DNA of 42,746 nucleotides from Candidatus Micrarchaeota archaeon. Lineage in GTDB: Archaea; B1Sed10-29. The position numbers and the translations under genes are program-made. Shown one piece after another: positions 1-42,746 of the stretch (within the stretch, counting starts at the first letter, position 1; each line of letters opens with the position of its first letter). A model generated the notes under the pieces. The model made no database searches. It was not told where the DNA came from and saw only the letters and a program-made list of their open reading frames with translations. Location: contig CAYLXZ010000001.1 of assembly GCA_964388265.1 (NCBI GenBank), forward strand, positions 24,068-66,813. The letters are read 5' to 3'.

Positions 1-600
1 CTATCTCCGCAGATGGCTCCAAGAAACCGGGCACGACAGAGTAATAGATAGAATTTCAGATAAAGAGAAGAGAAAGGTAGAAGATCAAGCACACAAGATT
101 TCAAGGAGAATAGTAGACAGAGCAAAGAAAAACAACCTATGTATAGCAGTTGGAGATGTAAAAAACCATAGAGATTCGGACTGGGGTAAGAAAGGAAATA
201 GAAAACTACACTCTATGATCTCGCACAAGCTAAAGGAGTATATTAAGTACAAAGCGGAAGAGGAAGGAATTTATTGTGAAGTAGTGGATGAGAGCTATAC
301 AACGAAGAGTTGTTCAAGATGTGGTTATAAGAGAAATTCGAGACCCCAGAAACAATTTAAGTGTCCAGAATGTGGTTACAAGACCCACTCAGATATAAAT
401 GGAGCTAAGAACATTGGTAGACGAGGCTTGAGTAAGTTGGAAAATACCTCTATTCAAGTCAGGGGCTTTATTGACCAGCCCGAACCCTTGAAGAATAAAA
501 AAAGACGACAAGTGGTTACAAATGGCTAGTGAACGAGAGGGAAACCAAAACCGAAAGGGAATCCCACCATCTTCAGACGTGAGAGGAGGTCAATTATATA
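1..600 (+). mobile_element. Right-hand part of an IS200/IS605-family (tnpB-carrying) element. The left part is outside the window and the right end is not resolved.
   Basis: Carries the 3' part of a tnpB ORF. Codon style of ~190-530 differs from the adjacent pilus operon. The end coordinate is a guess, since the omega-RNA/right end usually extends past the tnpB stop. Confidence 0.45.
2..529 (+). CDS. tnpB: TnpB (OrfB) RNA-guided nuclease homologue, 5'-truncated by the window edge
   Basis: The frame of track ORF 215..529 stays open back to nt 2. It has HKISRRIVDRAKKNN, a CxxC-x16-CxxC zinc ribbon (CSRCG...CPECG) and RuvC-III-like HSDINGAKNI. The RuvC-II position reads IAVGDV rather than the usual I-x-x-E-D-L. 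Confidence 0.8.
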   Translation, partial: YLRRWLQETGHDRVIDRISDKEKRKVEDQAHKISRRIVDRAKKNNLCIAVGDVKNHRDSDWGKKGNRKLHSMISHKLKEYIKYKAEEEGIYCEVVDESYTTKSCSRCGYKRNSRPQKQFKCPECGYKTHSDINGAKNIGRRGLSKLENTSIQVRGFIDQPEPLKNKKRRQVVTNG

Positions 601-629
601 AATGATCTATGTTTAATTAAAATGATAGA

Positions 630-2267
630 ATGGGTTACCTCGACGAAGTCATAGAAGAATCAAAAGAAGAAAAAGAAGAAACAGAGAAAGAACAGCCAGA
701 AGAAAAACCAACAAAGAAAGAAAAAGAACCTAAAGAAACAATTAAGGAACCCAAAGAGATAGAAAGGGGAAAAGAAAGATCAGAAGAAGAGGAAATAGAG
801 GAAGAAAAATCCTCAGAAGTAGAAATAAAAGGAGAAAGAGAACTAATAACAAGCTACGATAACGTAAAAATCTACAAAGTAGAAGACGAACAACTACCAG
901 TCTACGAAGTCCCAGTAATCAAACCCACAGGACCAGAGAAAAAAATAGTCAACACAATCAAAGAAGCAGCCACGAGGTTAATAACCCCATCAGCAGAACA
1001 ATTCAGATCCCCAGAAAAGAAAAGAAGATTCTACTTCAAAAGAATAAAAGAAATAATAGAAGAAAACCCAGAACTCGGAGTACCAGACACCAAGATAGAA
1101 TTCTACGCCGACATGGTAGTCCGACAAATGATAGGATACGGAGTAATAGACCCATTAGTCAGAGACAAAAAACTCGAAGAAGTAATGGTCATATCACCCG
1201 GAAAACCAGTCTACGCATTCCACAGAGAATACGGAATGATGAAAACCAACGTCAGATTCGCAAGCGAAAAAGAACTAAGAGACATAATAGACAGAATAGG
1301 AAGACAAGTAGGAAGAAGAGTAGACCGAAGCAATCCACTGCTCGACGCAAGACTACCAGACGGATCCAGAGTAAACGCAACAATCCAACCAATATCTCTA
1401 GACGGATCCACACTAACAATAAGAGAATTCAGAGAAGAACCAATAACAATCACAGACCTAATAAAATGGAACACTGTAACACCAGAAGCAGGAGCCTTCC
1501 TATGGCTAATGGCAGAAGGACTAGGAGTAAGACCAGCAAACACCCTGATCTCAGGAGGAACAGCCTCAGGAAAAACCACGACACTCAACGTCCTATGCAG
1601 CTTCATCCCAGAAAGAGAAAGAATAATAACCATAGAACAAACCGCAGAACTCAAACTACCAATCGAACACTGGATAAGACTAGAAACCCGTCCACCAGGA
1701 CTAGAAGGAAAAGGAGAGATAGACATGGGAGCCCTAGTAGAAAACTCCCTGAGAATGAGACCAGACAGAATAACAGTAGGAGAAATAAGAGGAGAAGAAG
1801 CATTCAGCCTATTCACAGCCATGAATACAGGTCACGACGGTAGTTTTGGAACCGTACACGCCAACTCAGCTCAAGAAACCATCACAAGAGTAACAAGCCC
1901 ACCAATGGACGTTCCAATAATAATGGCGAACGCCCTAGACATCATAATAATGCAGCAAAGAATAAACAGAAAAGGAGAAGGACTCACAAGAAGAGTAACA
2001 CAAATATCAGAAGTCCAAAAAGTAAAAGAAAACGGAAAACCAGAACTAAACATATTATACGACTACGATCCAACAGAAGACAAACTCAAAAAACAAGAAA
2101 ACCCATCCAGATACAAACAAGAAATCCTAAAATACACGGACCTATCAAAAGACGACCTAGAACAAGAACTAGAGGACAGAAAAGAACTACTAGAAAAACT
2201 AGCAAGAGAAAACATAAGAAAACTAGAAGATGTTAAAGAAGAAATAAGAAAATACAGGATGAAATAA
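630..2267 (+). CDS. Type II/IV secretion-family ATPase (archaeal pilus assembly ATPase, PilB/ArlI/VirB11-like) with a ~70-aa K/E-rich N-terminal extension
   Basis: Walker A SGGTASGKTTTLN, Walker B/Asp box RITVGEIRGEEA, His box TGHDGSFGTVHANSA. First gene of the pilus operon. Confidence 0.9.
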   Translation: MGYLDEVIEESKEEKEETEKEQPEEKPTKKEKEPKETIKEPKEIERGKERSEEEEIEEEKSSEVEIKGERELITSYDNVKIYKVEDEQLPVYEVPVIKPTGPEKKIVNTIKEAATRLITPSAEQFRSPEKKRRFYFKRIKEIIEENPELGVPDTKIEFYADMVVRQMIGYGVIDPLVRDKKLEEVMVISPGKPVYAFHREYGMMKTNVRFASEKELRDIIDRIGRQVGRRVDRSNPLLDARLPDGSRVNATIQPISLDGSTLTIREFREEPITITDLIKWNTVTPEAGAFLWLMAEGLGVRPANTLISGGTASGKTTTLNVLCSFIPERERIITIEQTAELKLPIEHWIRLETRPPGLEGKGEIDMGALVENSLRMRPDRITVGEIRGEEAFSLFTAMNTGHDGSFGTVHANSAQETITRVTSPPMDVPIIMANALDIIIMQQRINRKGEGLTRRVTQISEVQKVKENGKPELNILYDYDPTEDKLKKQENPSRYKQEILKYTDLSKDDLEQELEDRKELLEKLARENIRKLEDVKEEIRKYRMK

Positions 2268-2268
2268 A

Positions 2269-3399
2269 ATGCCCGACGAAGACGAAGAACTAAAAAAACT
2301 ACTAGAAGAGAAAAAATCAGGAGAAGAAGAGATAGATGAAGATACACTTAACAAAATCGTAGACCGAATGTCAGATAAATACGAAAAAGAAGGAGTCCTA
2401 GAAGAAGGAGAAGCACCGGAAAAAACAGAAGAACTTAGAAAACTAATGAGAGGAGAAAAAACCTATGAAGTAGGAGAATCATCAGCAAGACAGCTATCAG
2501 GATTTGACAACGCCGTTGTAAGATTCTTCGGAAAACTATACACTTCACTCGGCACTCCAATAGAGAAATTCGAAACATCACTCGAAAACAGCCTTGGAAG
2601 AGGACTAGAAAAGAAACTAAACGCAGCGAGAATGGACTACTCAGTAGAACAGTACCTAGCCCTAACCATCATATCCATGATAATAACCTCAGCAGCAACC
2701 TTCGGAGCACTATTCATACTATTTCTAATGGGAATACTCCCAATATTCATCCCCATAATTGGATCAATCTCAGCACTACTATTAGTCCTAGGACTAGCCT
2801 TGATTATACCTAGAAACAAAGCTAAAAAGATAGGTAACGAAGTGGAGAAAGAAATGACTTTACCACATCGCCACATGTCAATAGAGATTAGAGGAGGAGT
2901 AGGAATATACTATACCATACTATCAATAGCTAGCTCAGACTACGGTATACTCAGCAAAGGAGTCGAATGGATTCTCGGGAACATAGAGAAAGGAGTATCA
3001 ACAGAAGATGCACTGGAAGCATGGTCAGAGAGAACAGAGAGTGAAAACGTAAGAAGAGTAGTTTCACACATCGTCAGAGCACTGAGAACAGGAGGAAACC
3101 TTTCAGATGTAATGATAGAGATCGCGGATGACGTTTCCTTCCAAAGAAGACAGAAGATAGCCGACTTCAGCGAAAAACTGAACCTCGTAGGGCTATTCCT
3201 AATGATGTCAGCAATCGTGTTCCCAATAATGATAGCAATACTAACCACAATAGGAAGCACCCCACAGATACAGAAATACCTAGGGTTCTTCGCCATATTC
3301 TCACCACAATTCCTAATGCTAGTGTTCTTCGTGATCGTACCAGGCCTACTATTCATATTCATGTACTACATCAAATCAAGCGACCCAGGAGCTGTCTAG
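2269..3399 (+). CDS. Pilus platform membrane protein with a single T2SS-F domain (TadB/ArlJ-like half)
   Basis: Charged cytoplasmic N-terminus, several TM helices, T2SSF-like core (VRRVVSHIVRALRTGGNLSDVMIEIADDV). Starts 1 nt after the ATPase stop. Confidence 0.8.
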   Translation: MPDEDEELKKLLEEKKSGEEEIDEDTLNKIVDRMSDKYEKEGVLEEGEAPEKTEELRKLMRGEKTYEVGESSARQLSGFDNAVVRFFGKLYTSLGTPIEKFETSLENSLGRGLEKKLNAARMDYSVEQYLALTIISMIITSAATFGALFILFLMGILPIFIPIIGSISALLLVLGLALIIPRNKAKKIGNEVEKEMTLPHRHMSIEIRGGVGIYYTILSIASSDYGILSKGVEWILGNIEKGVSTEDALEAWSERTESENVRRVVSHIVRALRTGGNLSDVMIEIADDVSFQRRQKIADFSEKLNLVGLFLMMSAIVFPIMIAILTTIGSTPQIQKYLGFFAIFSPQFLMLVFFVIVPGLLFIFMYYIKSSDPGAV

Positions 3400-3400
3400 A

Positions 3401-4309
3401 ATGACGAGCATAAGAGGAGCATGGGAAAACTACAAAGAAACAGTAGCGTTCGCAGGAATAGAGATAAAGCCAATCTACCTAATCCTACTTACCTTGGTTC
3501 TAGCCATAGGAGGATTCATCCTAGGGCAATTCATAGACCTGACACTAGGTTTCCTACTTGCAATAGTCTTCATAGACCTCGGATTTGGACTACCGTCATT
3601 CATAGCCAAGAGAAAAATTGAAAAGATAGAGAAAAGCCTTCCCGATGTACTACACCACATGTCCACGACCTTGAAAACTGGTGGAACAGTAGAAACAGCC
3701 CTAAGAGAAGTCAGCAGAATGAAGTACGGTCCAATCACCACAGGACTCAAAAAAATGCTCAGAGAGATAAAGGAAGGATCCACATTCGAAAAATCACTCA
3801 CCAAATTCGCGAAAGAATCCCGAAGCAAGCTCCTAAAGAGAACAAGCACGATAATAATAGCAGCTAGAAGAAGCGGAGGAGGACTAGTAGACACCCTAAC
3901 AGCTATGAGCAGCGACATAAGAGCTATAAGAAGACTAAAATCAGAAAGAAAAACAAAGACACTTCTTCAATTCCTATTCATAATCACAACAGGATGCATA
4001 ATAGCTCCATTCGTATTCGGAGTGGTGAAATCCGTGCTATCAGTACTGATAAGAGTAGGAGGACCAGCAGCTGGAGCATCAGGACTAGTAACCAGATTCG
4101 ACTTCCTATTTAAAACCTATCTAATAATAGAATCCGCACTATCAACCCTAGGAGCAGTTCAAGTAAGAGATGGAAAGATGTCAAAAGCAGTACTCTACAT
4201 ACCAATACTCACACTTGTAACCTATGTAATCTACATGGTCATAGCATCTCAATTCCTAGCCATACTAGGAGGTGCCCAAGTAGCACAAGCTTCCTTCCTC
4301 TTCCTCTAA
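3401..4309 (+). CDS. Pilus platform membrane protein with a single T2SS-F domain (TadC/ArlJ-like half)
   Basis: LPDVLHHMSTTLKTGGTVETALREVS...IIIAARRSGGGLVDTLTAMSSDIR is a typical GspF/TadC/FlaJ core flanked by TM helices. Confidence 0.8.
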   Translation: MTSIRGAWENYKETVAFAGIEIKPIYLILLTLVLAIGGFILGQFIDLTLGFLLAIVFIDLGFGLPSFIAKRKIEKIEKSLPDVLHHMSTTLKTGGTVETALREVSRMKYGPITTGLKKMLREIKEGSTFEKSLTKFAKESRSKLLKRTSTIIIAARRSGGGLVDTLTAMSSDIRAIRRLKSERKTKTLLQFLFIITTGCIIAPFVFGVVKSVLSVLIRVGGPAAGASGLVTRFDFLFKTYLIIESALSTLGAVQVRDGKMSKAVLYIPILTLVTYVIYMVIASQFLAILGGAQVAQASFLFL

Positions 4310-4317
4310 TCATAACC

Positions 4318-4325
4318 TTTAAATA
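4318..4325 (+). promoter_or_regulatory. TATA box (tttaaata) of the pilin gene, followed by a ~40-nt leader with SD aggagga at 4377-4383
   Basis: Archaeal TATA consensus. The strong SD lies 7 nt before ATG 4391. Confidence 0.5.
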
Positions 4326-4390
4326 TACAAAGACACTTTTACCAACTGAAGATTCAAATAAAACCTACTAAAAAATAGGAGGATAATTAA

Positions 4391-4741
4391 ATGGATCAAA
4401 AAGCACAAGGCGCGCTCGAATACCTAATAATAACCGCAGCAGTACTAGCCATAGCAGCAGTAGTAGTAACAGTGATCTCAGGAGCATTCGGAGGAGGACA
4501 AGCATCAGCAGATGTAAGTCAAATCCAAGCAGACGCCGCAGACTGTTCTCAGGTACTAGCTAGCGAAGGAAAACCGATAGGAACCCCAGACGAAACACTA
4601 TGCGGAGACATATGTGAAGCAGCAAAAAATACAGACAAAGCAACGACTACCACCGCAGCTGAAAACTCTCTTGGAAGTGATGTAACTGTATACGATGCGT
4701 GCATAGCTGGAAAAGCAGACTGGATAAGGCAAAAATCATAG
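4391..4741 (+). CDS. Type IV pilin (class III signal peptide, DUF361/PF04021-type), probable major pilin
   Basis: MDQKAQG/ALEYLIITAAVLAIAAVVV N-terminus. It has its own TATA and strong SD, a T5 tract downstream (4784-4788), and a Cys-containing secreted domain. Confidence 0.85.
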   Translation: MDQKAQGALEYLIITAAVLAIAAVVVTVISGAFGGGQASADVSQIQADAADCSQVLASEGKPIGTPDETLCGDICEAAKNTDKATTTTAAENSLGSDVTVYDACIAGKADWIRQKS

Positions 4742-4799
4742 AGAAAACCAAGACAAGAGGGAAGCCACTCAGGCAACCCTTCGTTTTTAACATCTAAAC

Positions 4800-4807
4800 T
4801 ATAAATA
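4800..4807 (+). promoter_or_regulatory. TATA box (tataaata) centred ~26 nt upstream of ATG 4830, implying a leaderless transcript
   Basis: Spacing matches the archaeal TATA-to-TSS distance. No SD lies between the TATA box and the ATG. Confidence 0.5.
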
Positions 4808-4829
4808 AACGGAACCTCTTCTAATACTT

Positions 4830-5825
4830 ATGTGGATCTACCTATACCCAGCAGTAGCTCTAGTTTTCCTCATAGCCCTAAGCTACACAGACATAAAAAA
4901 CAGGAAAGCACCACCAATACTAACCAACGGACTACTAGCAATCGGTATAACTCTACACGCAGCACAAACCATAATCTCCGGTGACCCAAACCCCCTACTC
5001 TACTCCGCATCAATAGCACTAGCCATGTTCACAGTATCCTACATCATCTACAGGCTAGGAGGATGGGCAGGAGGAGACGTAAAACTATTCACAGCCCTAG
5101 GAGCAATACTACCCTTCCACGGAGCAATAAGCCAACTAACCTACCCAGTACCCTACCCAATACTCATACTAGCAGCCTCCACAATATCCGCACTGCCATT
5201 CATACTAGGATACGGAATATACAAAACCATCAAAGAACGAAAAACCAAACTCAAAAAAGACATAATGAAATCCCTACCCAAATCCATATACTCAGGATTC
5301 ATAATCCTAGCCACACTACACCTCACCAAGATAATAGGAATACATCCAATATCCACAGTGATAATAGCTCCAATGATCTACCTATCAAAACAACCAGGTT
5401 ATCCGCTTACAGCCTTCCTAGCAACACTAACAATACTACAAACACCATCACAATCACTTCAAAACCTACTCTACTTCCTAACAATATCAATACTAGCAAT
5501 AACAGGGATAAAAACATATAAATCAATAAAGAAAAACGTCCTAAGAGAAGAAAAATCCATCAAGGAGCTTGAAGAAGGAGAAATACCAGGAGAAGACGTA
5601 TGGAAAAAAGAAGAAATAAAAAAGAAAGAACCTTCACTAACCCGATTCACTGAACCAGGAGAACTGATAATAGACTCCAGAAAAGCCCGAGGACTAACAA
5701 AACAAGAAATAAACACACTTAAGGAGAAAGAGATAGAGACATTGAAGGTGAAGAAAAGCCTGCCATTCATCCCAGTCCTAACAGGAGGGCTAGTAATTCT
5801 CCTAATTCTAGAAATCTTTATATAA
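4830..5825 (+). CDS. A24-family prepilin/preflagellin peptidase (PibD/EppA/FlaK-like) with a C-terminal charged insert plus an extra TM helix
   Basis: Catalytic Asp motifs SYTDIKNRKAP and GGWAGGDVKLF (GxGD). Polytopic membrane protein. Confidence 0.85.
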   Translation: MWIYLYPAVALVFLIALSYTDIKNRKAPPILTNGLLAIGITLHAAQTIISGDPNPLLYSASIALAMFTVSYIIYRLGGWAGGDVKLFTALGAILPFHGAISQLTYPVPYPILILAASTISALPFILGYGIYKTIKERKTKLKKDIMKSLPKSIYSGFIILATLHLTKIIGIHPISTVIIAPMIYLSKQPGYPLTAFLATLTILQTPSQSLQNLLYFLTISILAITGIKTYKSIKKNVLREEKSIKELEEGEIPGEDVWKKEEIKKKEPSLTRFTEPGELIIDSRKARGLTKQEINTLKEKEIETLKVKKSLPFIPVLTGGLVILLILEIFI

Positions 5826-5848
5826 GTAGAATGTCTTATCAATACAAC

Positions 5849-6013
5849 ATGGAAAACACATCCCAAACCAGTTTAGAATACCTGATAATGCTAGGTCTAG
5901 TCGTAGTGATCGCTACACTAGCAATGGTGCTCACCGGAAGAATATTCACAATAAAAGACTCCCTAATGAATTCAATAAAGGAATTCAGAGAAACCACACT
6001 CCAAATAAAGTGA
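5849..6013 (+). CDS. Small pilin (class III signal peptide). The track ORF starts at 5831; ATG 5849 is preferred.
   Basis: MENTSQ/TSLEYLIMLGLVVVIATLAMV. The TATA-like tttatataa at 5817-5825 sits ~26 nt upstream of ATG 5849, suggesting a leaderless transcript. Confidence 0.7.
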   Translation: MENTSQTSLEYLIMLGLVVVIATLAMVLTGRIFTIKDSLMNSIKEFRETTLQIK

Positions 6014-6018
6014 AAAAA

Positions 6019-6195
6019 ATGAATAACAAAGCCCAAGTAAGCTTCGAATACCTCATACTCATAGGAGTACTCATAGTAATAGCCGCACTCGTCATGGTAC
6101 TATCGAAACACTACTTCACAGCCTCAGGATCAATCAAACAAACAGGAAAACTCTACTCTAACAAAACACTGGAAATGCTGGAGGTAAAAACATGA
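6019..6195 (+). CDS. Small pilin (class III signal peptide). The track ORF starts at GTG 6010.
   Basis: MNNKAQ/VSFEYLILIGVLIVIAALVMV, about 58 aa. Confidence 0.7.
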   Translation: MNNKAQVSFEYLILIGVLIVIAALVMVLSKHYFTASGSIKQTGKLYSNKTLEMLEVKT

Positions 6196-6602
6196 AAAAA
6201 GGCCAAATAACCATAGAATACCTATTAATACTCGTAGTGCTAATAATGCTATTCACAAACGTCTCAATGGACCTAATCCAATTCACAAGCAAAAACACAC
6301 TACAAATGCAGACCAAAGAGATAGAAAAATCACACAACCAAACACTACAACACATCTCACAGTCAATCTCCCTACAAGCACCAGGAGCAAAACAAACAAT
6401 GCTCCTCAACACCCCACCAGACTGCGCATACAACATGACAACAAAAAACATAACCCTAGAATGCAGAGAAGACACACCAAGCGAAAACTACACAGGAGAA
6501 ACCATAGGGAAAACCACGGAGAAAGTACAGTACCTCAACCCAAGAACAATACCCCGAGGAGAATCAGCACAGATAACACTATATAAAACCGAGGGAACAT
6601 AA
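6192..6602 (+). CDS. Pilin-like protein (class III signal peptide)
   Basis: MKKG/QITIEYLLILVVLIMLF. ATGA overlap with the upstream gene. Confidence 0.7.
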   Translation: MKKGQITIEYLLILVVLIMLFTNVSMDLIQFTSKNTLQMQTKEIEKSHNQTLQHISQSISLQAPGAKQTMLLNTPPDCAYNMTTKNITLECREDTPSENYTGETIGKTTEKVQYLNPRTIPRGESAQITLYKTEGT

Positions 6603-6967
6603 TGAACAAAGGACTAGCCTCCTTCGAATTCCTATTAATGCTAGGTCTAATCCTACTAATAACCTCAACACTAATAACAGATTCACTAAACCAATCAAAA
6701 AAAACCATGGTGTTCTCAACCTCCAAGTCAATGCTTCAGAGCAAGATAAACACCAAGTCACTGAACTCCACAGACTGCTCCAACCCACAGATAGAGTCCT
6801 ACCAAGTACAAGAAAACACCCTCACATTCACCGTAGATCCACCCGAATGCCAAATAAACCCATCAAAAATAGCCGACCCAATAGAAAGAGACATATGTGG
6901 AGTCGAACCCAACCAAGATAACATCGTAAAATGCGGAAGCGAAGAATTCGAGGTGAACATACAATGA
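6602..6967 (+). CDS. Pilin-like protein (class III signal peptide)
   Basis: MNKG/LASFEFLLMLGLILLI. TAATG overlap with the upstream gene. Confidence 0.65.
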   Translation: MNKGLASFEFLLMLGLILLITSTLITDSLNQSKKTMVFSTSKSMLQSKINTKSLNSTDCSNPQIESYQVQENTLTFTVDPPECQINPSKIADPIERDICGVEPNQDNIVKCGSEEFEVNIQ

Positions 6968-7545
6968 AGACAATAAAAAACAAATATAAAGAAAAATACG
7001 GAGACCTAGAACCCTACATAGCCCTAAAACTCCAAGTAAACATAATTGTAGCTCTACTGATAGCTATCCTAGCAACATTCACAAACCCAATGATACATTC
7101 ACTGCAAATCCTTACACTAGCAGCGCTCATATACCTACTCACAGAAATCAAGTCACAGCACCACGAGAAACTAAAAAGATACACAGCAGTATTCACAACC
7201 CTATACATCGCAGTAGTTACAGTACCTATACTAATATCCAGATACACTCTACCAATATCCCCACAAGGCATCAACCTAATGCTAATGGCAATAATAAGTC
7301 TATTGGTTTTATTCATAGCACTAAGGACACTTACCAGCAAGAAAGGAGTAAAAGCAGAAGTAATACTAGCCAACGAAGAAATAGCAGTTGTACAACCAGA
7401 ATACAAACTACTATCCGGAATAAAACCAAAGAAATATGTTGTAAAAAACAAAGGAGCAGAAAAAGAAGACCAAGTAATTGTTAACATATCCAAAACACCA
7501 TTCAAAACACCCAAACCCAAGAGAGTGAAGGAAGTGATAACTTGA
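6964..7545 (+). CDS. Membrane protein of the pilus operon (about 4 TM helices plus a C-terminal soluble domain), function unknown
   Basis: The internal ATG at 6964 forms an ATGA overlap with the previous stop. Hydrophobic helices are followed by KGVKAEVILANEEIAVVQPEY... Confidence 0.55.
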   Translation: MKTIKNKYKEKYGDLEPYIALKLQVNIIVALLIAILATFTNPMIHSLQILTLAALIYLLTEIKSQHHEKLKRYTAVFTTLYIAVVTVPILISRYTLPISPQGINLMLMAIISLLVLFIALRTLTSKKGVKAEVILANEEIAVVQPEYKLLSGIKPKKYVVKNKGAEKEDQVIVNISKTPFKTPKPKRVKEVIT

Positions 7546-7946
7546 GAAAAGGACAAGTAACACTAGACCTACTGATGGCGGTTCTAATAACTCTATTCCT
7601 CCTAACCTGGATACAAGGATTCATAGAAATACAAACAACACAAACACAGACCCAAGGAATACACCAAGAAACATCCCAAGTAGCCATATCCACAGGATCC
7701 ATAATGAACACATTCCAAGCACTAAACCCCCAGACAGGAGACTACTCAGAAGCAGCAACACTAAGAATAAAGAACATGCTCGAACCCGTGAACTCAACCC
7801 TAACCAAGAACCAAGAAGACAACCAAATAACCGTAACAACCTTCTACGGAGACAACCAAGCAACCTACAGCTACCCAGTACACGGAAACACCACCTACCA
7901 AGAAAACTGCTCAAATACAGGAGGTAAACCCTGTGTCAAGAAATAA
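7542..7946 (+). CDS. Pilin-like protein (class III signal peptide), TTG start
   Basis: (M)RKG/QVTLDLLMAVLITLFLL. SD-like aagtgat plus a 3-nt spacer precede TTG, which overlaps the upstream stop. Confidence 0.65.
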   Translation: MRKGQVTLDLLMAVLITLFLLTWIQGFIEIQTTQTQTQGIHQETSQVAISTGSIMNTFQALNPQTGDYSEAATLRIKNMLEPVNSTLTKNQEDNQITVTTFYGDNQATYSYPVHGNTTYQENCSNTGGKPCVKK

Positions 7947-8337
7947 AGGACAAGTATTCACACTAGACGTCCTAGCAGCAATACTAGGAATAACCATAAT
8001 GCTAGGAATAACCGTACAATACCAAGGAATGATAAAAAACAAAGCCACCCAATCCCAATACCAAGAAATGAAAACCATAGCAAGCGACGCAGCACAGATA
8101 GCTGTGAAAAAAACCGCAGTCAAAGAACACAAAGCAAACACCCTGGACCCAGGAACCGACCTCTCCCAATTGATGAATGAATTAACAGGAGAAAAATACA
8201 GCTATGAGATAAAAGGAGCAATCACAGCCAACGAAGGAACCTGCAACGGGATGGAAGAGATAGCTAACTCACGTAGAATAGTTAAAAACGAATCACAAGA
8301 AATACAGAACCTCACAGTGGTGATATGCAATGGATAA
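7933..8337 (+). CDS. Pilin-like protein (class III signal peptide), GTG start
   Basis: (M)SRNKG/QVFTLDVLAAILGITIML. GGAGGT lies 7 nt upstream of the GTG. Confidence 0.65.
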   Translation: MSRNKGQVFTLDVLAAILGITIMLGITVQYQGMIKNKATQSQYQEMKTIASDAAQIAVKKTAVKEHKANTLDPGTDLSQLMNELTGEKYSYEIKGAITANEGTCNGMEEIANSRRIVKNESQEIQNLTVVICNG

Positions 8338-8641
8338 AGGGGTAGTTTTCTCAATGGACACCGCCTACGCCATATTCATAATACTACTAGCCTCAGCCAC
8401 AGTAATCACACTGCTAAACACATCAACCCAAACCAACCACCAATCACTCTACCTATCCAGAATAGCCAGAGACATACACGACACCAATATGTCCCTAGAC
8501 GGAGAACTAAACACATCCAAAGTAAACTGGATAAAAATAAACAACTGCAGTGAAGAAAACCAAGTAGGAACACACAGAGCCGTAGTGTACAACGGAACAG
8601 GGGACCTAAAAACCACCACAACGGAGGTATGTCCAAAATGA
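8330..8641 (+). CDS. Pilin-like protein (class III signal peptide)
   Basis: MDKG/VVFSMDTAYAIFIILLASATVITLL. Overlaps the upstream gene by 8 nt. Confidence 0.55.
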   Translation: MDKGVVFSMDTAYAIFIILLASATVITLLNTSTQTNHQSLYLSRIARDIHDTNMSLDGELNTSKVNWIKINNCSEENQVGTHRAVVYNGTGDLKTTTTEVCPK

Positions 8642-9060
8642 AGAAAGGACTAGTAATCACAGGACTAGCTTTCATAATAGCAGTCATAGTAATAGCATCA
8701 GCCAACTACCTCGTAATAAGCAACCAAAACAAGAACAAAGCCAACGTAGTTAAAATGAAGATAGACGCAGTCACCAACAGAAACCAAGACATCAAATGGA
8801 TAATAAACAACACGGTAGAAGAAGGAATAAACCAAGGAAGCAACTGCACGGAAACAACCCAAATAATCAAAAACAACCTACAACAAGCAATGGCAGATAA
8901 CCTAACCAACATAGGACCAGTGAAAACACAGACATATTCCCTAGGAACAGACAACAGCACCTGTCCATATAACTTCACAGTAAACCTAGAATACAACGTA
9001 AAAACCAATAACGAAAATATATCTATAGAAAGAACCTTCTCCGAAAACTACAACTACTAA
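8638..9060 (+). CDS. Pilin-like protein (class III signal peptide). The track ORF starts at 8629.
   Basis: MKKG/LVITGLAFIIAVIVIASA. ATG 8638 gives an ATGA overlap and correct GGAGGT spacing. Confidence 0.55.
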   Translation: MKKGLVITGLAFIIAVIVIASANYLVISNQNKNKANVVKMKIDAVTNRNQDIKWIINNTVEEGINQGSNCTETTQIIKNNLQQAMADNLTNIGPVKTQTYSLGTDNSTCPYNFTVNLEYNVKTNNENISIERTFSENYNY

Positions 9061-9092
9061 CCAGAATTAACTCAAAACCTTCTAATTAATCC

Positions 9093-9099
9093 TTTAAAT
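9093..9099 (+). promoter_or_regulatory. TATA box (tttaaat) ~26 nt upstream of ATG 9122, implying a leaderless transcript
   Basis: Position and sequence only. Confidence 0.45.
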
Positions 9100-9121
9100 C
9101 ACTCTATCTATATTTCCCCAC

Positions 9122-9451
9122 ATGGACAAATCAACAACACTAACCCTAGCAATCGCCATAACCGGCCTAATCCTACTACAAACCACCACAACCACAGACT
9201 ACCCAAATAAAACCATAAAAGAAATAAAATCAAACTGCAAAGGAAAATTCACCACACAAGGAAAGATAATAAAAACATTCTACTCCGAAAAAGGAAACTA
9301 CCTAGGCATAATCACTGGAGAAGAAGAACAAGCTCTCATAATGCTATCAGAGACCAAGACACTGCCAGGAAACCAAGTAAAAGTAAAAGGAAAAGCCTCA
9401 GGATACAGAGAACAATGTTTCCTCTTCCCAGAGAAAGTAAAGATAAAATGA
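9122..9451 (+). CDS. Membrane-anchored small beta-barrel (OB-fold-like) protein
   Basis: N-terminal TM helix plus a Thr linker, then a ~80-aa beta-rich domain (FTTQGKIIKTFYSEKGNYLGIITGEEEQALIM...VKVKGKAS). The fold assignment is by resemblance only. Confidence 0.45.
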   Translation: MDKSTTLTLAIAITGLILLQTTTTTDYPNKTIKEIKSNCKGKFTTQGKIIKTFYSEKGNYLGIITGEEEQALIMLSETKTLPGNQVKVKGKASGYREQCFLFPEKVKIK

Positions 9452-10590: not shown

Positions 10591-10602
10591 CCACGGAAAG
10601 AG

Positions 10603-10610
10603 ATATAAAA
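10603..10610 (+). promoter_or_regulatory. TATA box (atataaaa) ~25 nt upstream of ATG 10631, implying a leaderless transcript
   Basis: Position and sequence only. Confidence 0.45.
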
Positions 10611-10630
10611 ATCCAGGAACCAAGGAAACC

Positions 10631-11002
10631 ATGGAGATAAAGGAACAGACACTTCAAGACATACTAAGAGTAGCAAAGTCCTTTCACCCAAGAGAATCAG
10701 GAGGACTACTACTAGGCCGAAAAGAAATAGACGACTACGTACTAATACCAGGGAGATTCACAGCGAACAGCGTAAGCGTGAAACTCAACCAACTGCCTAT
10801 CTACGTGAATAAACAAGGCACATTCCACAGCCATCCAACACCAAATGCCAACCCATCAAAAGCGGACCAACAGTTCTTCTCAAAGATGGGTAAATACCAT
10901 TTAATAATCGCAAAACCCTATAACGAAGAATCCGTACAAGCCTACAACAACAGAGGCGAAAAAGAAGAAATACAGATAATTAACTCGGAGGAAGAAACAT
11001 GA
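10631..11002 (+). CDS. JAMM/MPN+ metalloprotease (Mov34 family), stand-alone
   Basis: ESGG...FHSHPTPNANPSKAD matches the E-x(n)-HxH-x7-S-xx-D JAMM motif. Confidence 0.8.
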   Translation: MEIKEQTLQDILRVAKSFHPRESGGLLLGRKEIDDYVLIPGRFTANSVSVKLNQLPIYVNKQGTFHSHPTPNANPSKADQQFFSKMGKYHLIIAKPYNEESVQAYNNRGEKEEIQIINSEEET

Positions 11003-12882: not shown

Positions 12883-12887
12883 TTTCA

Positions 12888-13724: not shown

Positions 13725-13743
13725 CTTCAGGAAGAGGAGGAAG

Positions 13744-16895: not shown

Positions 16896-16919
16896 TTTAT
16901 CAGTGAACCAAATCTATTT

Positions 16920-29553: not shown

Positions 29554-29559
29554 ATATTA

Positions 29560-29612: not shown

Positions 29613-29707
29613 AAATATGTTTTTCTGACGCCCTACTGTTGAACTTTTTATTCAGGTTGTTCTAGACTCCTTGTCTTTACATTTTATGTAAAACTCTACT
29701 AGTGGGT

Positions 29708-33005: not shown

Positions 33006-33575
33006 TTACAGAGCACCTAAAAAGAAGAAATTAAAGTAAACCAAGAACACGAATACAATCCCCCAAGTAACAGAACTCCAGTTAAACACATCATAACCAT
33101 CCAAAGGAGGGAAAGGAAGCATATTAAAGAAAGCTAGAAAGAAGTTAATTCTAAAACCCCAGAGACCAATCGCGGATAAACCTGTATATAGATAAACCCA
33201 TAAAAAACCCAGACCAAGCAAGATATTCATCACTGGACCTGAAATGCTGATCAATCCATTCTCCCTCAAAGACATATACTTCTCCCGAATATAAACAGCT
33301 CCAGGAGCAGCAAACACAAAAGGAGTTAACACAGCAAAAGCCAGAGCCAATATCAATCCACTTAACCAAGTTCTATAAACAGCTACATAACCAAAACTCT
33401 GAGCAATAGCTTTATGACCAAGCTCATGCACAACAAAACCCAAACCAACAGTTAAAAACAATAAAGGAAGACCAACAGCTCTTCCAGGCCCCTTAGCAAA
33501 GATTATATAGAAAGCTACAGTGATCGTGAACACAGAGATAGCTAGATGAATCAACTCAGTCTTCTCAAAATCCAT
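33006..33575 (-). CDS. M50-family (site-2 protease-like) membrane metalloprotease
   Basis: HELGH in a TM helix and NMLPFPPLDG (LDG motif). Polytopic. Confidence 0.85.
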   Translation of the reverse strand: MDFEKTELIHLAISVFTITVAFYIIFAKGPGRAVGLPLLFLTVGLGFVVHELGHKAIAQSFGYVAVYRTWLSGLILALAFAVLTPFVFAAPGAVYIREKYMSLRENGLISISGPVMNILLGLGFLWVYLYTGLSAIGLWGFRINFFLAFFNMLPFPPLDGYDVFNWSSVTWGIVFVFLVYFNFFFLGAL

Positions 33576-35107: not shown

Positions 35108-35390
35108 AGGATACATAATGTCCCTGGAAGCCCTGATATGCCTAGCCATACTCACAGTCTCCCTAGCGCAAGTTCAAATAAAACCAAAACCAGATTTAAA
35201 TGAAGAACTCACCTATCAGTTAACCCAAGACATAGTAGAAACATGCATAAAGAACAATACACCCAACAAGAAATGCTTCAGCAAAATAACTAAAATAAAC
35301 CCACACATAACCCTAGATAAAAAAGGAAACATAACTTTCACCCGAAAGATAGATGGAGAAAAGAATAACATAACGTTTAAACTAAGTTAA
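35082..35390 (+). CDS. Pilin-like protein, TTG start
   Basis: ...NKG/YIMSLEALICLAILTVSLAQ. An alternative ATG lies at 35118. Confidence 0.5.
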   Translation: MSSNYKPNKGYIMSLEALICLAILTVSLAQVQIKPKPDLNEELTYQLTQDIVETCIKNNTPNKKCFSKITKINPHITLDKKGNITFTRKIDGEKNNITFKLS

Positions 35391-35744
35391 ATCTCTCAGG
35401 ACCCTGACCCTATCCCCAGAACTGAATTTATAATTATTCAACCTACAAGATTCTCTCCAAGGTACCTCGGAACTTAAGTTATTGGAAGATACCACTAAAG
35501 AACCAGATCCAGTATCTATATCTACAGAGAAAGAAACTTCAGTTACAAACACCTGTTCCCTGCCTAGAGAAACGAGTTCCTCACAGCCACTCGAAACATC
35601 CTTGGCAAGAGAATCCAAACGCGTCTTCAATACAACTTCCCGAGAAACACCTTCAACCTCTGAAACCAAAGGAAGAACCACAAGCAAAATAGAGATCGAT
35701 ACAGAAAACACCAAAAGATACTCCAACGAAACCTGTGCCCTCAT
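35382..35744 (-). CDS. Pilin-like protein (class III signal peptide)
   Basis: MRAQ/VSLEYLLVFSVSISILLVVL. Third gene of a minus-strand pilin operon. Confidence 0.65.
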   Translation of the reverse strand: MRAQVSLEYLLVFSVSISILLVVLPLVSEVEGVSREVVLKTRLDSLAKDVSSGCEELVSLGREQVFVTEVSFSVDIDTGSGSLVVSSNNLSSEVPWRESCRLNNYKFSSGDRVRVLRDLT

Positions 35745-35749
35745 CCTAC

Positions 35750-35917
35750 CTACCCTATATCCGTCTCCTCATCAAGAACCATCTCAGCCTCCTTATCCAA
35801 CCTACTCCCAGCTTCACTGGAAAAACTCTCCAGTCCACTTATAAGAACTAAAGCAACCGCTATCAACGCGGCTAAAACAATTATTAACTCCGCTGAAACC
35901 TGCGCATCATCTTCCAT
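35750..35917 (-). CDS. Small Flp-like pilin (55 aa), not in the ORF track
   Basis: My own translation: MEDDAQVSAELIIVLAALIAVALVLISGLESFSSEAGSRLDKEAEMVLDEETDIG*. The stop lies 5 nt before the next start. Confidence 0.65.
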   Translation of the reverse strand: MEDDAQVSAELIIVLAALIAVALVLISGLESFSSEAGSRLDKEAEMVLDEETDIG

Positions 35918-35922
35918 GGACA

Positions 35923-36093
35923 TCACCCTGTTATATTATCAATTTCACCCATCAACTCATCAGTAGATTCATTCAACTTCGATACTGCTTTCTCCGAAGT
36001 GCCGGAGAGATTCTGGATTAACAAGAGAGAAAAACCCACTACAGCCGCCATTATTATTAAAAGCTCCGCCGATATCTGAGCTCTATTCTCCAT
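35923..36093 (-). CDS. Small Flp-like pilin (56 aa), not in the ORF track
   Basis: My own translation: MENRAQISAELLIIMAAVVGFSLLLIQNLSGTSEKAVSKLNESTDELMGEIDNITG*. Paralogue of 35750..35917. Confidence 0.65.
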   Translation of the reverse strand: MENRAQISAELLIIMAAVVGFSLLLIQNLSGTSEKAVSKLNESTDELMGEIDNITG

Positions 36094-41790: not shown

Positions 41791-41850
41791 ATAGAAATAT
41801 ATGAACTTAATCTTTTTAAACAATAAGGGATTAATAAGAATGGTGTCTAG

Positions 41851-42096
41851 ATGACTGATAAAATAGGAGAGGTAACCCACTACTTCAATGACATAGATGT
41901 GGGAATAATAAAGCTTCAGGACAAGCTAGAGGCCGGAGACCGAATAAGGATAAAAGGCTCAACAACAGACTTCGAACAAGACGTTGAATCCATGGAGATA
42001 GACCAAGAAAAAGTCCAGGAAGCAGGAAAAGGAGAAAGCATTGGCCTCAAGGTAAAAGAAAGAGTAAGAGAAGACGATGAAGTATATAAAGTTTAA
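41851..42096 (+). CDS. Small beta-barrel protein resembling EF-Tu domain II
   Basis: 81 aa, VGIIKLQDKLEAGDRIRIKG...GESIGLKVKERVREDDEVY. Assigned by resemblance only. Confidence 0.4.
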   Translation: MTDKIGEVTHYFNDIDVGIIKLQDKLEAGDRIRIKGSTTDFEQDVESMEIDQEKVQEAGKGESIGLKVKERVREDDEVYKV

Positions 42097-42118
42097 AATT
42101 ACCGAGGATAAGATTTGA

Positions 42119-42746
42119 ATGAATATTAGAGCACAAGGTGCACTGGAATACCTAATTATCTTGGCAGCAGTACTTTCTATAGCAGCTGTCGTAGTAACAT
42201 TCATGATGGGGTCTTTCGGGTCACAAAGAGAACAAGCTACAATAGCGAATTGTAAGCAGGCGGCTTCGAACTGCAAGACCAAGTTAGCTACCTCTGTGAA
42301 TCCGAACTGTTCTGAATGTGAAGAAGCATGTATAGATGTTGGGACTGGTGAACCGATAACACCGAAAGCGGTTGAGCTCTGTAAGGAAGGTAAAGCTGCT
42401 AAGATTGGTTCAGTGGTGAATGAGTCGGGTAATGAGACTAATTCGGCTCCTAGTGCTAGTTTTTCTTATTCTCCGAGTGATCCTGTAGTTGATGAGTCTG
42501 TTAGTTTTACTGATGGTTCTAGTGATTCTGATGGTAGTATAGCTAGTTGGAGTTGGAGTTTTGGTGATGGAAGTGATTCTAGTACTCAGAATCCATCTCA
42601 TTCTTACTCCAGTTCTGGTAGTTACGTTGTGGAGTTGAATGTGACTGATGATGATGGTGCTACGGATACTTATACTGAGACTGTGAATGTCGGAGAGGGT
42701 AATACTGCTCCTAATGAGCCCACTAATCCTTCTCCGAGTGATGGTG
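42119..42746 (+). CDS. Type IV pilin fused to a Cys-rich region and PKD domain(s), 3'-truncated by the window edge; not in the ORF track
   Basis: My own translation: MNIRAQG/ALEYLIILAAVLSIAAVVVTF..., a paralogue of 4391..4741. It continues with ...FSYSPSDPVVDESVSFTDGSSDSDGSIASWSWSFGDGSDSSTQNPSHSYSSSGSYVVELNVTDDDGATDT, a canonical PKD domain. Confidence 0.8.
   Translation, partial: MNIRAQGALEYLIILAAVLSIAAVVVTFMMGSFGSQREQATIANCKQAASNCKTKLATSVNPNCSECEEACIDVGTGEPITPKAVELCKEGKAAKIGSVVNESGNETNSAPSASFSYSPSDPVVDESVSFTDGSSDSDGSIASWSWSFGDGSDSSTQNPSHSYSSSGSYVVELNVTDDDGATDTYTETVNVGEGNTAPNEPTNPSPSDG

What the first reader, a model, noticed from the sequence alone, without database searches (positions are those of the whole stretch)
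1..42746. Extreme strand-specific A+C versus G+T bias flips sign in patches of ~0.3-10 kb, sometimes inside intact genes
Read codon by codon, long + strand stretches use almost only A- or C-ending codons. Examples are the pilus operon ~630-11050, 18334-19080, 19990-21040, topA ~23480-25800, 27635-28430 and ~30040-36100. Other stretches are G/T-ending on the + strand: ~190-530, ~12900-18250, 21060-23300, 28490-29550, 40650-41790 and 42200-42746. The bias follows the DNA strand, not the gene. Minus-strand genes inside an A+C patch (radB, M50 protease 33006-33575, pilins 35382-36093, GTPase 38018-39157) have G/T-ending codons in their own frame. Minus-strand ABCE1 and HTH-MNT lie in G+T patches and are A/C-ending, while plus-strand pelota next to ABCE1 is G/T-leaning. 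This looks like a replication or ssDNA-deamination asymmetry (C->T plus A->G on one strand). But the sign changes a dozen or more times in 43 kb. Several switches fall within uninterrupted ORFs: apgM, the methyltransferase near 12450, the MiaB-like gene near 19080 and 19990, the GLUG protein near 23300-23480, PIN near 40650 and tnpB near 190. Inversions cannot explain switches inside intact genes. Candidate explanations, all inference: recombination tracts imported from relatives that replicate the locus in the opposite direction, strand-coordinated hypermutation patches, or an assembly artefact. Patch coordinates are by-eye estimates.
Basis: partly seen in the sequence, partly recalled or inferred. 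Interest (0 to 1): 0.7.

Follow-up and report, generated by a model that had tools for sequence, protein, structure and literature searches.

The report
Extreme patchy strand bias, Micrarchaeota chromosome
This stretch of a tiny archaeon's chromosome carries a mitochondrion-like, very strong bias (A and C on one DNA strand, G and T on the other) that reshapes codons and even protein composition. Its direction differs between related lineages and between neighbouring pieces of this window, so the sequence records which pieces have changed strand context.

Summary
The core observation is real. Third codon positions are extremely skewed (4-fold sites up to A .72, C .19, G .04, T .05). The + strand signal breaks into 14-21 segments, against 1 in permutations.

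- Most sign flips coincide with changes of gene orientation.
- Ten of 16 minus-strand genes, including ABCE1, RFC and toxin-antitoxin modules, are A/C-ending in their own frame.
- Pelota is not G/T-leaning.
- The '+ ORF' at 12895-13230 is a shadow of a minus-strand TA module.

A DNA-level component is nevertheless clear:
- M50 and the pilins are mirrored here and in relatives; radB is mirrored in relatives (.16-.23) but only G/T-leaning here (.43).
- Intergenic spacers follow the local sign.
- Orthologues' amino-acid composition tracks the skew (r=.87).
- Two syntenic relatives carry the opposite polarity on the same genes.

True intragenic switches occur in the GLUG and PKD surface proteins, and in a close relative's ABCE1.

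Best reading: a clade-specific strand-asymmetric mutation pressure, probably replication-linked, acting on a mosaic of segments with different strand histories (mobile modules, domain cassettes, possibly recombined tracts). Recombination is not demonstrated. Hypermutation, codon selection and assembly artefact are disfavoured.

The parts
638..12000 (+). Backbone segment: pilus operon, TctA, JAB and most of apgM. + strand third positions are 83% A/C.
   Evidence: Segmentation; per-gene values .73-.89; Pfam T2SSE/T2SSF/PhosphMutase.
12003..13750 (.). Transition zone (A/C .52). It holds the apgM 3' end, the methyltransferase (.61), a minus-strand DUF2283-like gene (12888-13118), a DUF4258-like gene (13111-13329), and a 414-bp spacer with no ORF. 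The + ORF 12895-13230 is a shadow.
   Evidence: (homology to the L006 TA module).
13753..15773 (-). ABCE1 plus a 65-aa gene on the minus strand. They are A/C-ending in their own frame (.78, .72), so the + strand is .22. Orthologues in relatives are .45-.71.
15776..16871 (+). Pelota, A/C .60. This is lower than in relatives (.62-.79, apart from L011 at .45) but not G/T-leaning.
16874..18336 (-). RFC small subunit plus a window-specific MNT nucleotidyltransferase. Own frame .71 and .63; + strand .30. RFC orthologues within the clade are .33-.46; L011 is .60.
19094..20225 (+). MiaB-like gene as a low-skew unit (.56) between .79 and .88 flanks. Clade orthologues are .71-.78; L011 is .44.
21271..23364 (+). 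GLUG repeat core of a window-specific 895-aa surface protein. It is T-ending (third positions T .48, A .23, C .17, G .13). The 5' limit is uncertain (20952-21270); the 3' limit has support 23349-23373.
   Evidence: No close homologue: bacterial and archaeal hits are at most 51% identical.
23367..25663 (+). C-terminal region of the GLUG protein, which ends in a hydrophobic tail, plus topA. A/C .85.
   Evidence: The hydrophobic tail is my reading of the translation.
25814..27532 (-). Free-standing LAGLIDADG/HTH gene. It is unskewed (.55) and low in GC, and is 83% identical to the copy at the same site in L007.
28491..30043 (-). Window-specific HEPN, HTH-MNT and 111-aa genes. They are A/C-ending in their own frame (.72, .75, .59), so the + strand is .26.
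30033..30725 (-). radB, a conserved minus-strand gene. Own A/C is .43 here and falls 5' to 3'. It is fully mirrored in relatives (.16-.23).
33006..33575 (-). M50 peptidase, a conserved minus-strand gene with mirrored usage (T .52, G .23, A .14, C .11). L001's orthologue is .32.
35382..36093 (-). Two minus-strand pilin-like genes with mirrored usage (.29, .34). The spacer between them is A/C-rich on the + strand (.66).
   Evidence: (weak Class_IIIsignal hit).
42397..42745 (+). PKD domain of a pilin-signal/PKD protein. Its third positions (T .72, G .19, A .05, C .04) are close to the mirror of native usage. The N-terminal 92 codons are .48.

Best explanation
The window is chromosomal DNA of a Candidatus Micrarchaeota lineage. 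That lineage is under an unusually strong strand-asymmetric mutation pressure: one DNA strand is driven towards A and C, and its complement towards T and G.

Shown:
- The pressure acts on DNA, not on codons. It affects synonymous sites, spacers and amino-acid composition.
- Its polarity is a property of the DNA strand, and it differs between related lineages at the same syntenic genes.

Inferred:
- The polarity is set by the direction of replication, as in mitochondrial heavy/light strands or bacterial leading/lagging strands.
- The base pattern is that expected if one strand takes more cytosine and adenine deamination and guanine oxidation.
- The window looks patchy because its segments have spent different times on their present strand. 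These segments are mobile toxin-antitoxin modules and a homing-endonuclease gene inserted on the minus strand, domain cassettes swapped into two surface proteins, and a few conserved genes (ABCE1, RFC, MiaB, pelota).
- The skew of those conserved genes changed in this lineage either by homologous recombination with unsampled close relatives of opposite polarity, or by a local gene-linked effect.
For: 1. Magnitude and clade specificity.
2. DNA-level action:
   - Conserved minus-strand genes are mirrored or intermediate in all five close relatives: radB .16-.23, M50 .32, pilins .23-.24, RFC .33-.50.
   - Spacers follow the local sign.
   - Positions 1+2 and the amino-acid composition of orthologues co-vary with third-position A/C: r=.87, p=9e-18, n=54. 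As an example, TctA has 31% G/V/F/W/C/L in the window and 52% in L010.
3. Polarity differs among lineages while synteny stays intact:
   - L010's pilus operon is T/G-ending (.22-.48, mostly .40 or below).
   - L011 switches from .39 to .64 within 73 nt at the ABCE1|apgM junction, irrespective of gene orientation.
4. Patches that are insertions relative to relatives: the GLUG gene, the LAGLIDADG gene, HEPN-MNT, and MNT. The TA module at 12888-13329 is shared with L006.
5. The PKD core is close to the mirror of native usage. The GLUG 3' and PKD change points fall near domain boundaries.
6. An independent intragenic switch lies in ABCE1 of the closest relative. The sequence is identical in two assemblies.
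7. ABCE1 and RFC show no gene-linked excess in L010 or L011, which argues against a constant expression effect.
Against: - Within the window, gene orientation explains more than a constant DNA-strand term.
- The four boundaries around ABCE1/65aa, pelota and RFC/MNT lie 5-21 nt from gene ends. Random recombination tracts would not be expected to do this.
- Synteny of that block is conserved, so inversion cannot explain it.
- No flanking inverted repeats were found.
- Protein identities show no phylogenetic discordance for ABCE1, pelota, RFC or MiaB, or along ABCE1.
- The ABCE1 neighbourhood has attenuated skew in every member of the close clade. This hints at a local, ongoing cause rather than separate historical events.
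- The link to replication direction is untested, because no complete genome, origin or coverage data were available.
- If the leading strand is G+T-rich, as in bacteria, most genes here would be head-on to replication.
Confidence: 0.55

Rival explanations
1. Two mutational asymmetries are superimposed. One is DNA-level and replication-linked. The other is transcription-linked and enriches A/C on the sense strand of strongly transcribed units. In this lineage the second dominates in ABCE1, RFC and their neighbours. Read-through from convergent genes produces the gradients seen at gene 3' ends.
For: - Flips at 13753, 15776, 16874 and 18339 sit 5-21 nt from gene ends.
- A gene-strand model beats a DNA-strand model.
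- 5'-to-3' declines occur in radB, the GTPase and the methyltransferase, and at the 3' ends of apgM and topA. All of these abut convergent genes.
- L007 also has a segment boundary inside the apgM 3' end.
- The rank order of minus-strand genes (M50/pilins/radB < GTPase/RFC < ABCE1) is similar across relatives.
Against: - ABCE1 and RFC show no sense-strand excess in L010 or L011.
- L010's whole pilus operon is G/T-rich on its sense strand.
- MiaB and pelota are lowered with no antisense neighbour that could explain it. The GLUG and PKD cores cannot be explained this way.
- L004's ABCE1 is low at its 5' end and high at its 3' end, the reverse of the read-through prediction.
- From background knowledge, the known transcription-associated asymmetry in E. 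coli and mammals enriches G+T, not A+C, on the sense strand.
Confidence: 0.22
2. Replication direction is locally heterogeneous. A weak or dormant origin, a fork barrier, or recombination-dependent restart near ABCE1-RFC means this few-kb region is often copied in the opposite direction. This attenuates or reverses the skew in place.
For: - The ABCE1 neighbourhood deviates in every close relative: .62 in L007, .40 in L006, .21-.48 in L004, .22-.30 in the window.
- It is also where the polarity switches in L010 and L011.
- The right boundary at 18336 is sharp, and the left side is graded (.22.52.83).
Against: - No origin-like repeats or AT-rich spacer were found.
- The spacers at the switch points are only 12-85 bp.
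- Pelota, in the middle of the region, stays at .60.
- A 6-kb replichore is mechanistically awkward.
- L010 and L011 switch with opposite sign.
Confidence: 0.07
3. The contig is an assembly chimera of co-occurring relatives with opposite polarity. In-frame joins inside shared genes would leave ORFs intact.
For: - Metagenome assemblers can switch strains at conserved stretches. An in-frame switch inside a shared gene would keep the ORF open.
- The window's own contig could not be retrieved for checking.
Against: - Gene order is colinear with seven related loci.
- A Logan contig from ERR5414701 is 100% identical over 40161-41067.
- The analogous intragenic switch in L004 is reproduced base for base in a second run's assembly.
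- Opposite-polarity strains would share few long exact k-mers, since identity at third positions is about 50% or less.
Confidence: 0.05
4. Translational selection favours A- and C-ending codons, which pair perfectly with U34 and G34 tRNAs in a reduced tRNA set. The exceptions are weakly expressed or foreign genes.
For: - Most genes on both strands of the window are A/C-ending.
- C is preferred over T despite 40% GC.
Against: - Real genes are close to mirror images, with 91% G/T-ending in the PKD core and 76% in M50.
- Orthologous operons are T/G-ending in L010.
- The bias extends to spacers and to amino-acid composition.
Confidence: 0.03
5. The patches come from recent strand-coordinated hypermutation, for example by a deaminase acting on resected ssDNA.
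For: - The amino-to-keto direction is what deamination produces.
- Patches are of kb scale.
- The locus contains mobile elements and a homing-endonuclease-like gene that could cause breaks.
Against: - The deviating conserved genes show no excess protein divergence. ABCE1 is 71% identical to L001 in the window and 70% in L004. For RFC, the window is 75-79% identical to L001, L006 and L007, against 72-73% between L001 and those two.
- Composition is at near-equilibrium extremes and includes a large A/T transversion asymmetry, which transitions alone cannot produce.
- ORFs are intact.
Confidence: 0.03

Closest known systems
Heavy/light-strand asymmetry of animal mitochondrial genomes, with skew reversal after control-region inversion
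   Same: - A+C-rich versus G+T-rich strands.
- 4-fold sites ordered A > C > T >= G (background knowledge; window values).
- Genes on the other strand are mirrored, as ND6 is; here that applies to M50 and the pilins.
- Protein composition is affected.
- Polarity is reversed in some related lineages. The mitochondrial literature on this is listed; only its abstracts were read.
   Different: - This is a cellular archaeal chromosome with housekeeping genes.
- The sign changes on a 0.3-10 kb scale, partly inside genes.
- Nothing is known about the replication mode.
- No gradient along the strand was tested.
Bacterial leading/lagging strand compositional asymmetry (for example Borrelia, where the strand determines codon and amino-acid usage)
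   Same: A strand-specific mutation pressure is visible at synonymous, non-coding and amino-acid level. Local anomalies mark inversions and horizontally acquired DNA (PMC8941118).
   Different: - Magnitude: typical GC skew is around 2.5% (PMC8941118), whereas 4-fold AT skew here is about .87 (A .70, T .05).
- The gene-rich strand here is C>G and A>T.
- Domains in bacteria are replichore-sized, not kb-sized.
- Neither origin nor terminus has been identified.
Archaeal nucleotide skews as described in PMC12999951, including the Haloferax third-position skew that opposes gene strand bias
   Same: The sign agrees. At third positions and in non-coding DNA, the gene-rich strand has C over G, as reported for H. 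volcanii.
   Different: That study attributes archaeal skews mainly to gene orientation, translation and the genetic code, and describes them as weak and variable. Here the skew is very strong. It is mirrored in opposite-strand genes and flips between syntenic orthologues, so it is mutational. DPANN and Micrarchaeota are not mentioned in the paper.
Compositional islands of horizontally acquired or relocated genes (amelioration)
   Same: Window-specific genes stand out compositionally from the backbone: TA modules, HEPN-MNT, LAGLIDADG and the GLUG core.
   Different: - The contrast is in strand skew, not GC content.
- Some deviating units are conserved, syntenic housekeeping genes (ABCE1, RFC, MiaB) with no sign of foreign origin.

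Membership tests
Replication-associated strand compositional asymmetry | Skew follows the DNA strand whatever the gene orientation | tested here: inconclusive
   - Met in relatives: L010 and L011 segments are uniform across both gene orientations, and opposite-strand genes are mirrored in L001 and L007.
- In the window: met for M50 and the pilins, not met for ABCE1, RFC or the TA modules.
Replication-associated strand compositional asymmetry | Present at synonymous and non-coding sites, and leaking into amino-acid composition | tested here: met
   4-fold sites, spacers, and positions 1+2 and amino acids (r=.87).
Replication-associated strand compositional asymmetry | Polarity switches at the origin and terminus, with replichore-scale domains | not testable with these tools
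   - Only 13-43 kb per genome could be read.
- The L011 switch (11770-11843) sits in a 12-bp spacer between convergent genes.
- No origin-like repeats were found in the window.
Mitochondrial-type ssDNA-damage asymmetry | Amino bases (A, C) on one strand and keto bases (G, T) on the other, with A>C>T>G at 4-fold sites of majority-strand genes | tested here: met
   A .57-.72, C .19-.28, G .03-.09, T .05-.06 in T2SSE, CDC48 and topA. The mirror is T .65-.70, G .17, A .08-.15, C .02-.05 in M50 and PKD.
Mitochondrial-type ssDNA-damage asymmetry | Skew gradient proportional to the time spent single-stranded; asymmetric replication mode | not testable with these tools
   This needs a complete genome and knowledge of the replication mode.
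Translational-selection codon bias | The preferred codons are the same in all genes and confined to synonymous choice | tested here: not met
   Mirrored genes, flipped orthologous operons, and amino-acid and spacer effects.
Transcription-associated mutational asymmetry | Skew polarity follows the transcribed strand of each unit | tested here: inconclusive
   - For: the gene-bounded flips around ABCE1, pelota and RFC.
- Against: M50, the pilins, L010's operon, the left half of L011, and the GLUG and PKD cores.
- No expression data are available.
Skew or composition anomaly from inserted or inverted DNA | The patch coincides with a segment that is absent or rearranged in relatives | tested here: inconclusive
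   - Met for GLUG, LAGLIDADG, HEPN/HTH-MNT/111aa and MNT.
- Not met for ABCE1, the 65-aa gene, RFC, pelota and MiaB, whose order and orientation are conserved.
   - Opposite-polarity relatives exist.
- The ABCE1 third-position profiles of the window, L004 and L075 differ by half-gene.
- Protein identities and 14 informative sites show no discordance.
- Synonymous sites are saturated, so the test has little power.
Hypermutation cluster (kataegis-like) | A recent burst of strand-coordinated transitions with excess divergence | tested here: not met
   There is no excess protein divergence in ABCE1, RFC or MiaB. A strong transversion (A/T) asymmetry is present.

The most novel reading that the evidence does not exclude
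In this Micrarchaeota clade the sign of a very strong mutational strand asymmetry is set locally and can change in place, without rearrangement and with boundaries inside conserved genes. Examples are ABCE1 in L004, the 73-nt switch at a convergent gene junction in L011, and the gene-sized flips of ABCE1 and RFC in the window. This would imply one of two things. Either small stretches are replicated or repaired in a different direction (fork barriers at head-on or convergent genes, or recombination-dependent replication), or there is frequent homologous exchange between sister lineages whose chromosomes are replicated in opposite directions. In either case the skew would be a readable, kb-resolution record of replication or recombination history in an uncultured archaeon.
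Probability: 0.2. Interest if true: 0.8.

Novelty: new variant of a known kind. Interest (0 to 1): 0.6.

Why it matters
- **Counter-example for archaea.** Recent surveys describe archaeal skews as weak and largely a by-product of gene orientation and the genetic code (PMC12999951; the preprint listed). This clade is different: its mutational strand asymmetry is strong enough to remodel proteins. TctA has 31% G/V/F/W/C/L residues in the window and 52% in L010.
- **A natural experiment.** Polarity differs between syntenic relatives and between neighbouring kb-scale segments. These genomes could therefore be used to date strand changes, detect recombination, and infer replication direction in uncultivable DPANN archaea.
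- **Practical risks.**
  - The skew generates very long antisense ORFs (475 aa inside CDC48), which can mislead gene callers.
  - It will bias phylogenies and composition-based binning.
  - It can mimic horizontal transfer.

Tried and rejected
- **Source contig.** Look-ups of window proteins to retrieve the 66.8-kb source contig and extend past the PKD gene failed. One look-up returned only a 907-bp identical Logan contig.
- **PKD homologues.** The partial PKD protein found no close homologue and not its own full-length entry.
- **Metagenome scan.** The scan with ABCE1 returned almost only distant archaea. It served as a background sample, not as a source of close relatives.
- **Invertible segment.** No inverted repeats flank the patches.
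- **Origin of replication.** No origin-like repeats lie at 12.85-13.8, 17.85-18.4 or 41.85-42.15 kb.
- **RNA genes.** There are no tRNA or Rfam hits. The 414-bp spacer does not fold better than shuffles (z = -1.0).
- **Recombination from divergent donors.** Per-gene and per-segment protein identities and informative-site counts show no discordance.
- **Polarising synonymous substitutions.** Not feasible. The closest relative is 82% identical in ABCE1 protein, and third positions are saturated.
- **Shadow ORFs as the cause of mirrored genes.** Rejected for M50, PKD and GLUG by their Pfam hits. Accepted for 12895-13230.
- **Literature.** No description of this skew in Micrarchaeota or DPANN was found.

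Full report
**What the window is.** Pfam identifies an archaeal type IV pilus operon (T2SSE, two T2SSF, A24 prepilin peptidase). It also finds TctA, JAB, apgM, a methyltransferase, ABCE1, pelota, RFC small and large subunits, a MiaB-like enzyme, topA, NFACT, radB, CDC48, an M50 peptidase and an Obg-like GTPase. Several mobile genes are present: a TnpB fragment, TA modules and a LAGLIDADG/HTH gene. The closest genome record is a Candidatus Micrarchaeota MAG, with topA 72% identical. There are no tRNA or Rfam hits.

**Is the bias real?** Yes.
- Bulk AT skew reaches +0.5 to +0.7 and GC skew about -0.3 over many kb.
- Typical genes have third positions A .51-.65, C .24-.32, G .07-.12, T .03-.05.
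- 4-fold sites of T2SSE and CDC48 are A .70-.72, C .19-.22, G .03-.04, T .05.
- In 25 unrelated archaeal loci centred on ABCE1, the mean per-gene deviation of third-position A+C from 0.5 is .03-.09. It is .23 in the window and .21-.26 in its close relatives.

**Does the sign flip?** Yes. An optimal-partition change-point analysis of + strand third positions gives 14 segments at a conservative penalty and 21 at a milder one. Permutations of the same sites always give one.

**DNA strand or gene?** In the window, both.
- A gene-strand-only model (own-frame A/C = .70) fits much better than a DNA-strand-only model (logL -8140.6 against -8605.5). A two-parameter model is better still, and more than half of the deviance remains between genes.
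- Ten of 16 minus-strand genes are A/C-ending in their own frame: ABCE1 .78, the 65-aa gene .72, RFC .71, HEPN .72, HTH-MNT .75, MNT .63, and others.
- Eight of 20 change points fall within 21 nt of a gene end. Four of these bound ABCE1/65aa, pelota and RFC/MNT.
- Pelota is .59-.60 A/C, not G/T-leaning.
The real genes there are minus-strand DUF2283-like and DUF4258-like genes, homologous to a TA module at the same site in relative L006.
- On the other hand, M50 (.24) and two pilins (.29.34) are mirrored. radB (.43) and the GTPase (.48) are intermediate. The spacer between the minus-strand pilins is A/C-rich on the + strand.

**Relatives settle the nature of the bias.** Seven syntenic loci were recovered.
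- In the five close ones for which several genes are held (L001, L004, L006, L007, L076), pilus-operon-strand genes are A/C-ending: .60-.88 in L001, L006 and L007, and weaker in L076 at .57-.75. L075 is only a 3.2-kb contig.
- Conserved opposite-strand genes in these relatives are mirrored or intermediate: radB .16-.23, M50 .32, pilins .23-.24, RFC .33-.50, ABCE1 .45-.71.
- In L010 (ABCE1 59% identical) the same pilus operon, TctA and JAB are T/G-ending (.22-.48, mostly .40 or below; T3 mostly .44-.57).
- In L011 (56% identical), 11.4 kb containing genes of both orientations sits uniformly at .39 and the adjoining 9.5 kb at .64. The switch has a 73-nt support interval at the ABCE1|apgM convergent junction, and gene order is unchanged.
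- Across orthologues, A+C at codon positions 1+2 tracks third-position A+C (r=.87, p=9e-18, n=54). TctA has 31% G/V/F/W/C/L residues in the window and 52% in L010.

Together these results exclude translational selection. They show a strand-specific mutation pressure whose polarity is a DNA-level property that varies among lineages. The composition is amino bases on one strand and keto bases on the other, with a large A/T transversion asymmetry. This is what is expected if one strand accumulates cytosine and adenine deamination plus guanine oxidation, as in mitochondrial heavy strands. That last step is inference from background knowledge. The sign (C over G at third positions on the gene-rich strand) matches what PMC12999951 reports for Haloferax.

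**What are the patches?**
1. *Insertions relative to L001.* These are MNT, the GLUG gene, the LAGLIDADG/HTH gene, and HEPN/HTH-MNT/111aa. The LAGLIDADG gene is 83% identical to L007's copy, whereas flanking housekeeping genes are 57-77% identical. The TA module at 12888-13329 is shared with L006. Minus-strand inserts carry own-frame A/C usage, as expected for genes relocated from the majority strand.
2. *Modular surface proteins.*
   - In GLUG, the N-terminal 78 codons are .62, the GLUG core .39 (T .48), and the C-terminal region .83. That region ends in a hydrophobic tail, by my reading of the translation. The 3' change point lies at 23349-23373.
   - In the pilin-signal/PKD protein, the first 92 codons are .48 and the PKD domain .09 (T .72, G .19, A .05, C .04), close to the mirror of native usage.
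   - The PKD change point falls just upstream of the Pfam PKD match (residues 108-190). The GLUG 3' change point falls at what looks, from the translation, like the start of a separate C-terminal domain. Both suggest domain cassettes that evolved on the opposite strand of a genome with this same skew. No donor was found.
3. *Conserved, syntenic genes whose skew differs from their orthologues.* The values are ABCE1 .78 (relatives .45-.71), RFC .71 (.33-.50 in the close clade.60 in L011), pelota .59 (.62-.79.45 in L011), MiaB .60 (.57-.78.44 in L011) and radB .43 (.16-.23). This class is not explained by insertion or inversion. No flanking inverted repeats exist.

**Tests on class 3.**
- Protein identities give the same topology for every gene: window with L004, then L001, L006 with L007, and L010 and L011 outside. 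There is no acceleration, which argues against a hypermutation burst and against import from a divergent donor.
- ABCE1 third-position profiles differ by half-gene among the three closest lineages. The window is high throughout. L004 is .42-.55 in the first ~170 codons and .7-.95 afterwards (LR 24.5). L075 shows the reverse, but weakly (LR 6.3).
- The L004 sequence is identical in assemblies of two runs.
- This mosaic suggests exchange among close, unsampled relatives of opposite polarity. However, amino-acid identities and 14 informative sites show no discordance along the gene, and synonymous sites are saturated.
- ABCE1 and RFC show no sense-strand excess in L010 or L011, which argues against a constant expression effect.
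- Against a purely historical explanation, the gene-end coincidence of boundaries favours a local, gene-linked or replication-linked cause. So does the attenuated skew around ABCE1 in every close relative. I could not separate these.

**Artefact?** Unlikely.
- The contig is colinear with seven related loci.
- A Logan contig is 100% identical over 40161-41067.
- All ORFs are intact.
- The analogous intragenic switch in a relative is reproduced in an independent assembly.
- Reads are still needed to exclude strain-chimeric joins at the GLUG and PKD boundaries.

**Verdict.** Most sign changes track gene orientation or inserted mobile genes, and some cited switches are weak or mis-read. The underlying cause is a clade-specific, very strong, DNA-level mutational strand asymmetry whose polarity varies among lineages. 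The window is a mosaic of segments with different strand histories, with a residue of conserved genes and sub-genic switches whose mechanism is open. I found no published description of this for Micrarchaeota or DPANN.

Noticed in passing
window 25814-27532 (-); L007 1424-3121: A free-standing LAGLIDADG plus HTH gene sits between topA and NFACT. It is 83% identical in protein to the copy at the same site in L007, while flanking housekeeping genes are 57-77% identical. It is absent from L001, has low GC (about .33-.35), and shows almost no strand skew. It looks like a recently mobile homing-endonuclease-type gene shared between lineages.
   Followed up: partly
window 31360-32787 (-), 13808-14512 (+), 1211-1822 (-), and many others: The extreme skew produces very long antisense shadow ORFs, because T is nearly absent from sense third positions. 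Examples are 475 aa inside CDC48 and 234 aa inside ABCE1.
   Followed up: partly
L011 11770-11843 (JGI Ga0190313_1000006): There is a sharp polarity switch (.39 to .64; LR 196) at the 12-bp spacer between the convergent ABCE1 and apgM genes, with gene order conserved. It has no room for an origin. It could be a fixed fork-meeting point or a recombination junction.
   Followed up: partly
window 13330-13743: A 414-bp stretch between the TA module and ABCE1 has no convincing ORF and no counterpart in L006. GC is about .41-.44. It has no Rfam hit, even at E<=1, and its folding energy is not unusual (z = -1.0).
   Followed up: yes
window 12888-13329 (-), 17943-18248 (-), 28491-29553 (-), 40598-40993 (+): The window has a high density of toxin-antitoxin-type genes: DUF2283/DUF4258, MNT, HEPN plus HTH-MNT, and PIN. 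They sit next to the conserved genes whose skew deviates (ABCE1, RFC, radB). The site between the methyltransferase and ABCE1 also holds a TA module in L006 and a PKD gene in L004.
   Followed up: partly
window 21037-23724 (+): The 895-aa GLUG-repeat surface protein lies in the spacer between the 244-aa gene and topA, which is 75-278 bp in relatives. Its best database hits are bacterial and archaeal GLUG proteins at 29-51% identity covering only the repeat core. This suggests possible acquisition of the core from outside the clade.
   Followed up: partly
window 2-529 (+): The C-terminal part of a TnpB/Cas12f-like protein (Pfam Cas12f1-like_TNB) lies at the left edge, cut by the window boundary. 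Its third-position A/C drifts from .68 to .42 along the fragment.
   Followed up: no
L076 (JGI Ga0207421_10005016) and L010, L011: The strength of the skew varies widely within the group. L076 (GC .32) shows mainly an A/T asymmetry (A .52, T .27, C .11, G .11), while the window and L007 add a strong C/G asymmetry. The two components may have separate causes.
   Followed up: no
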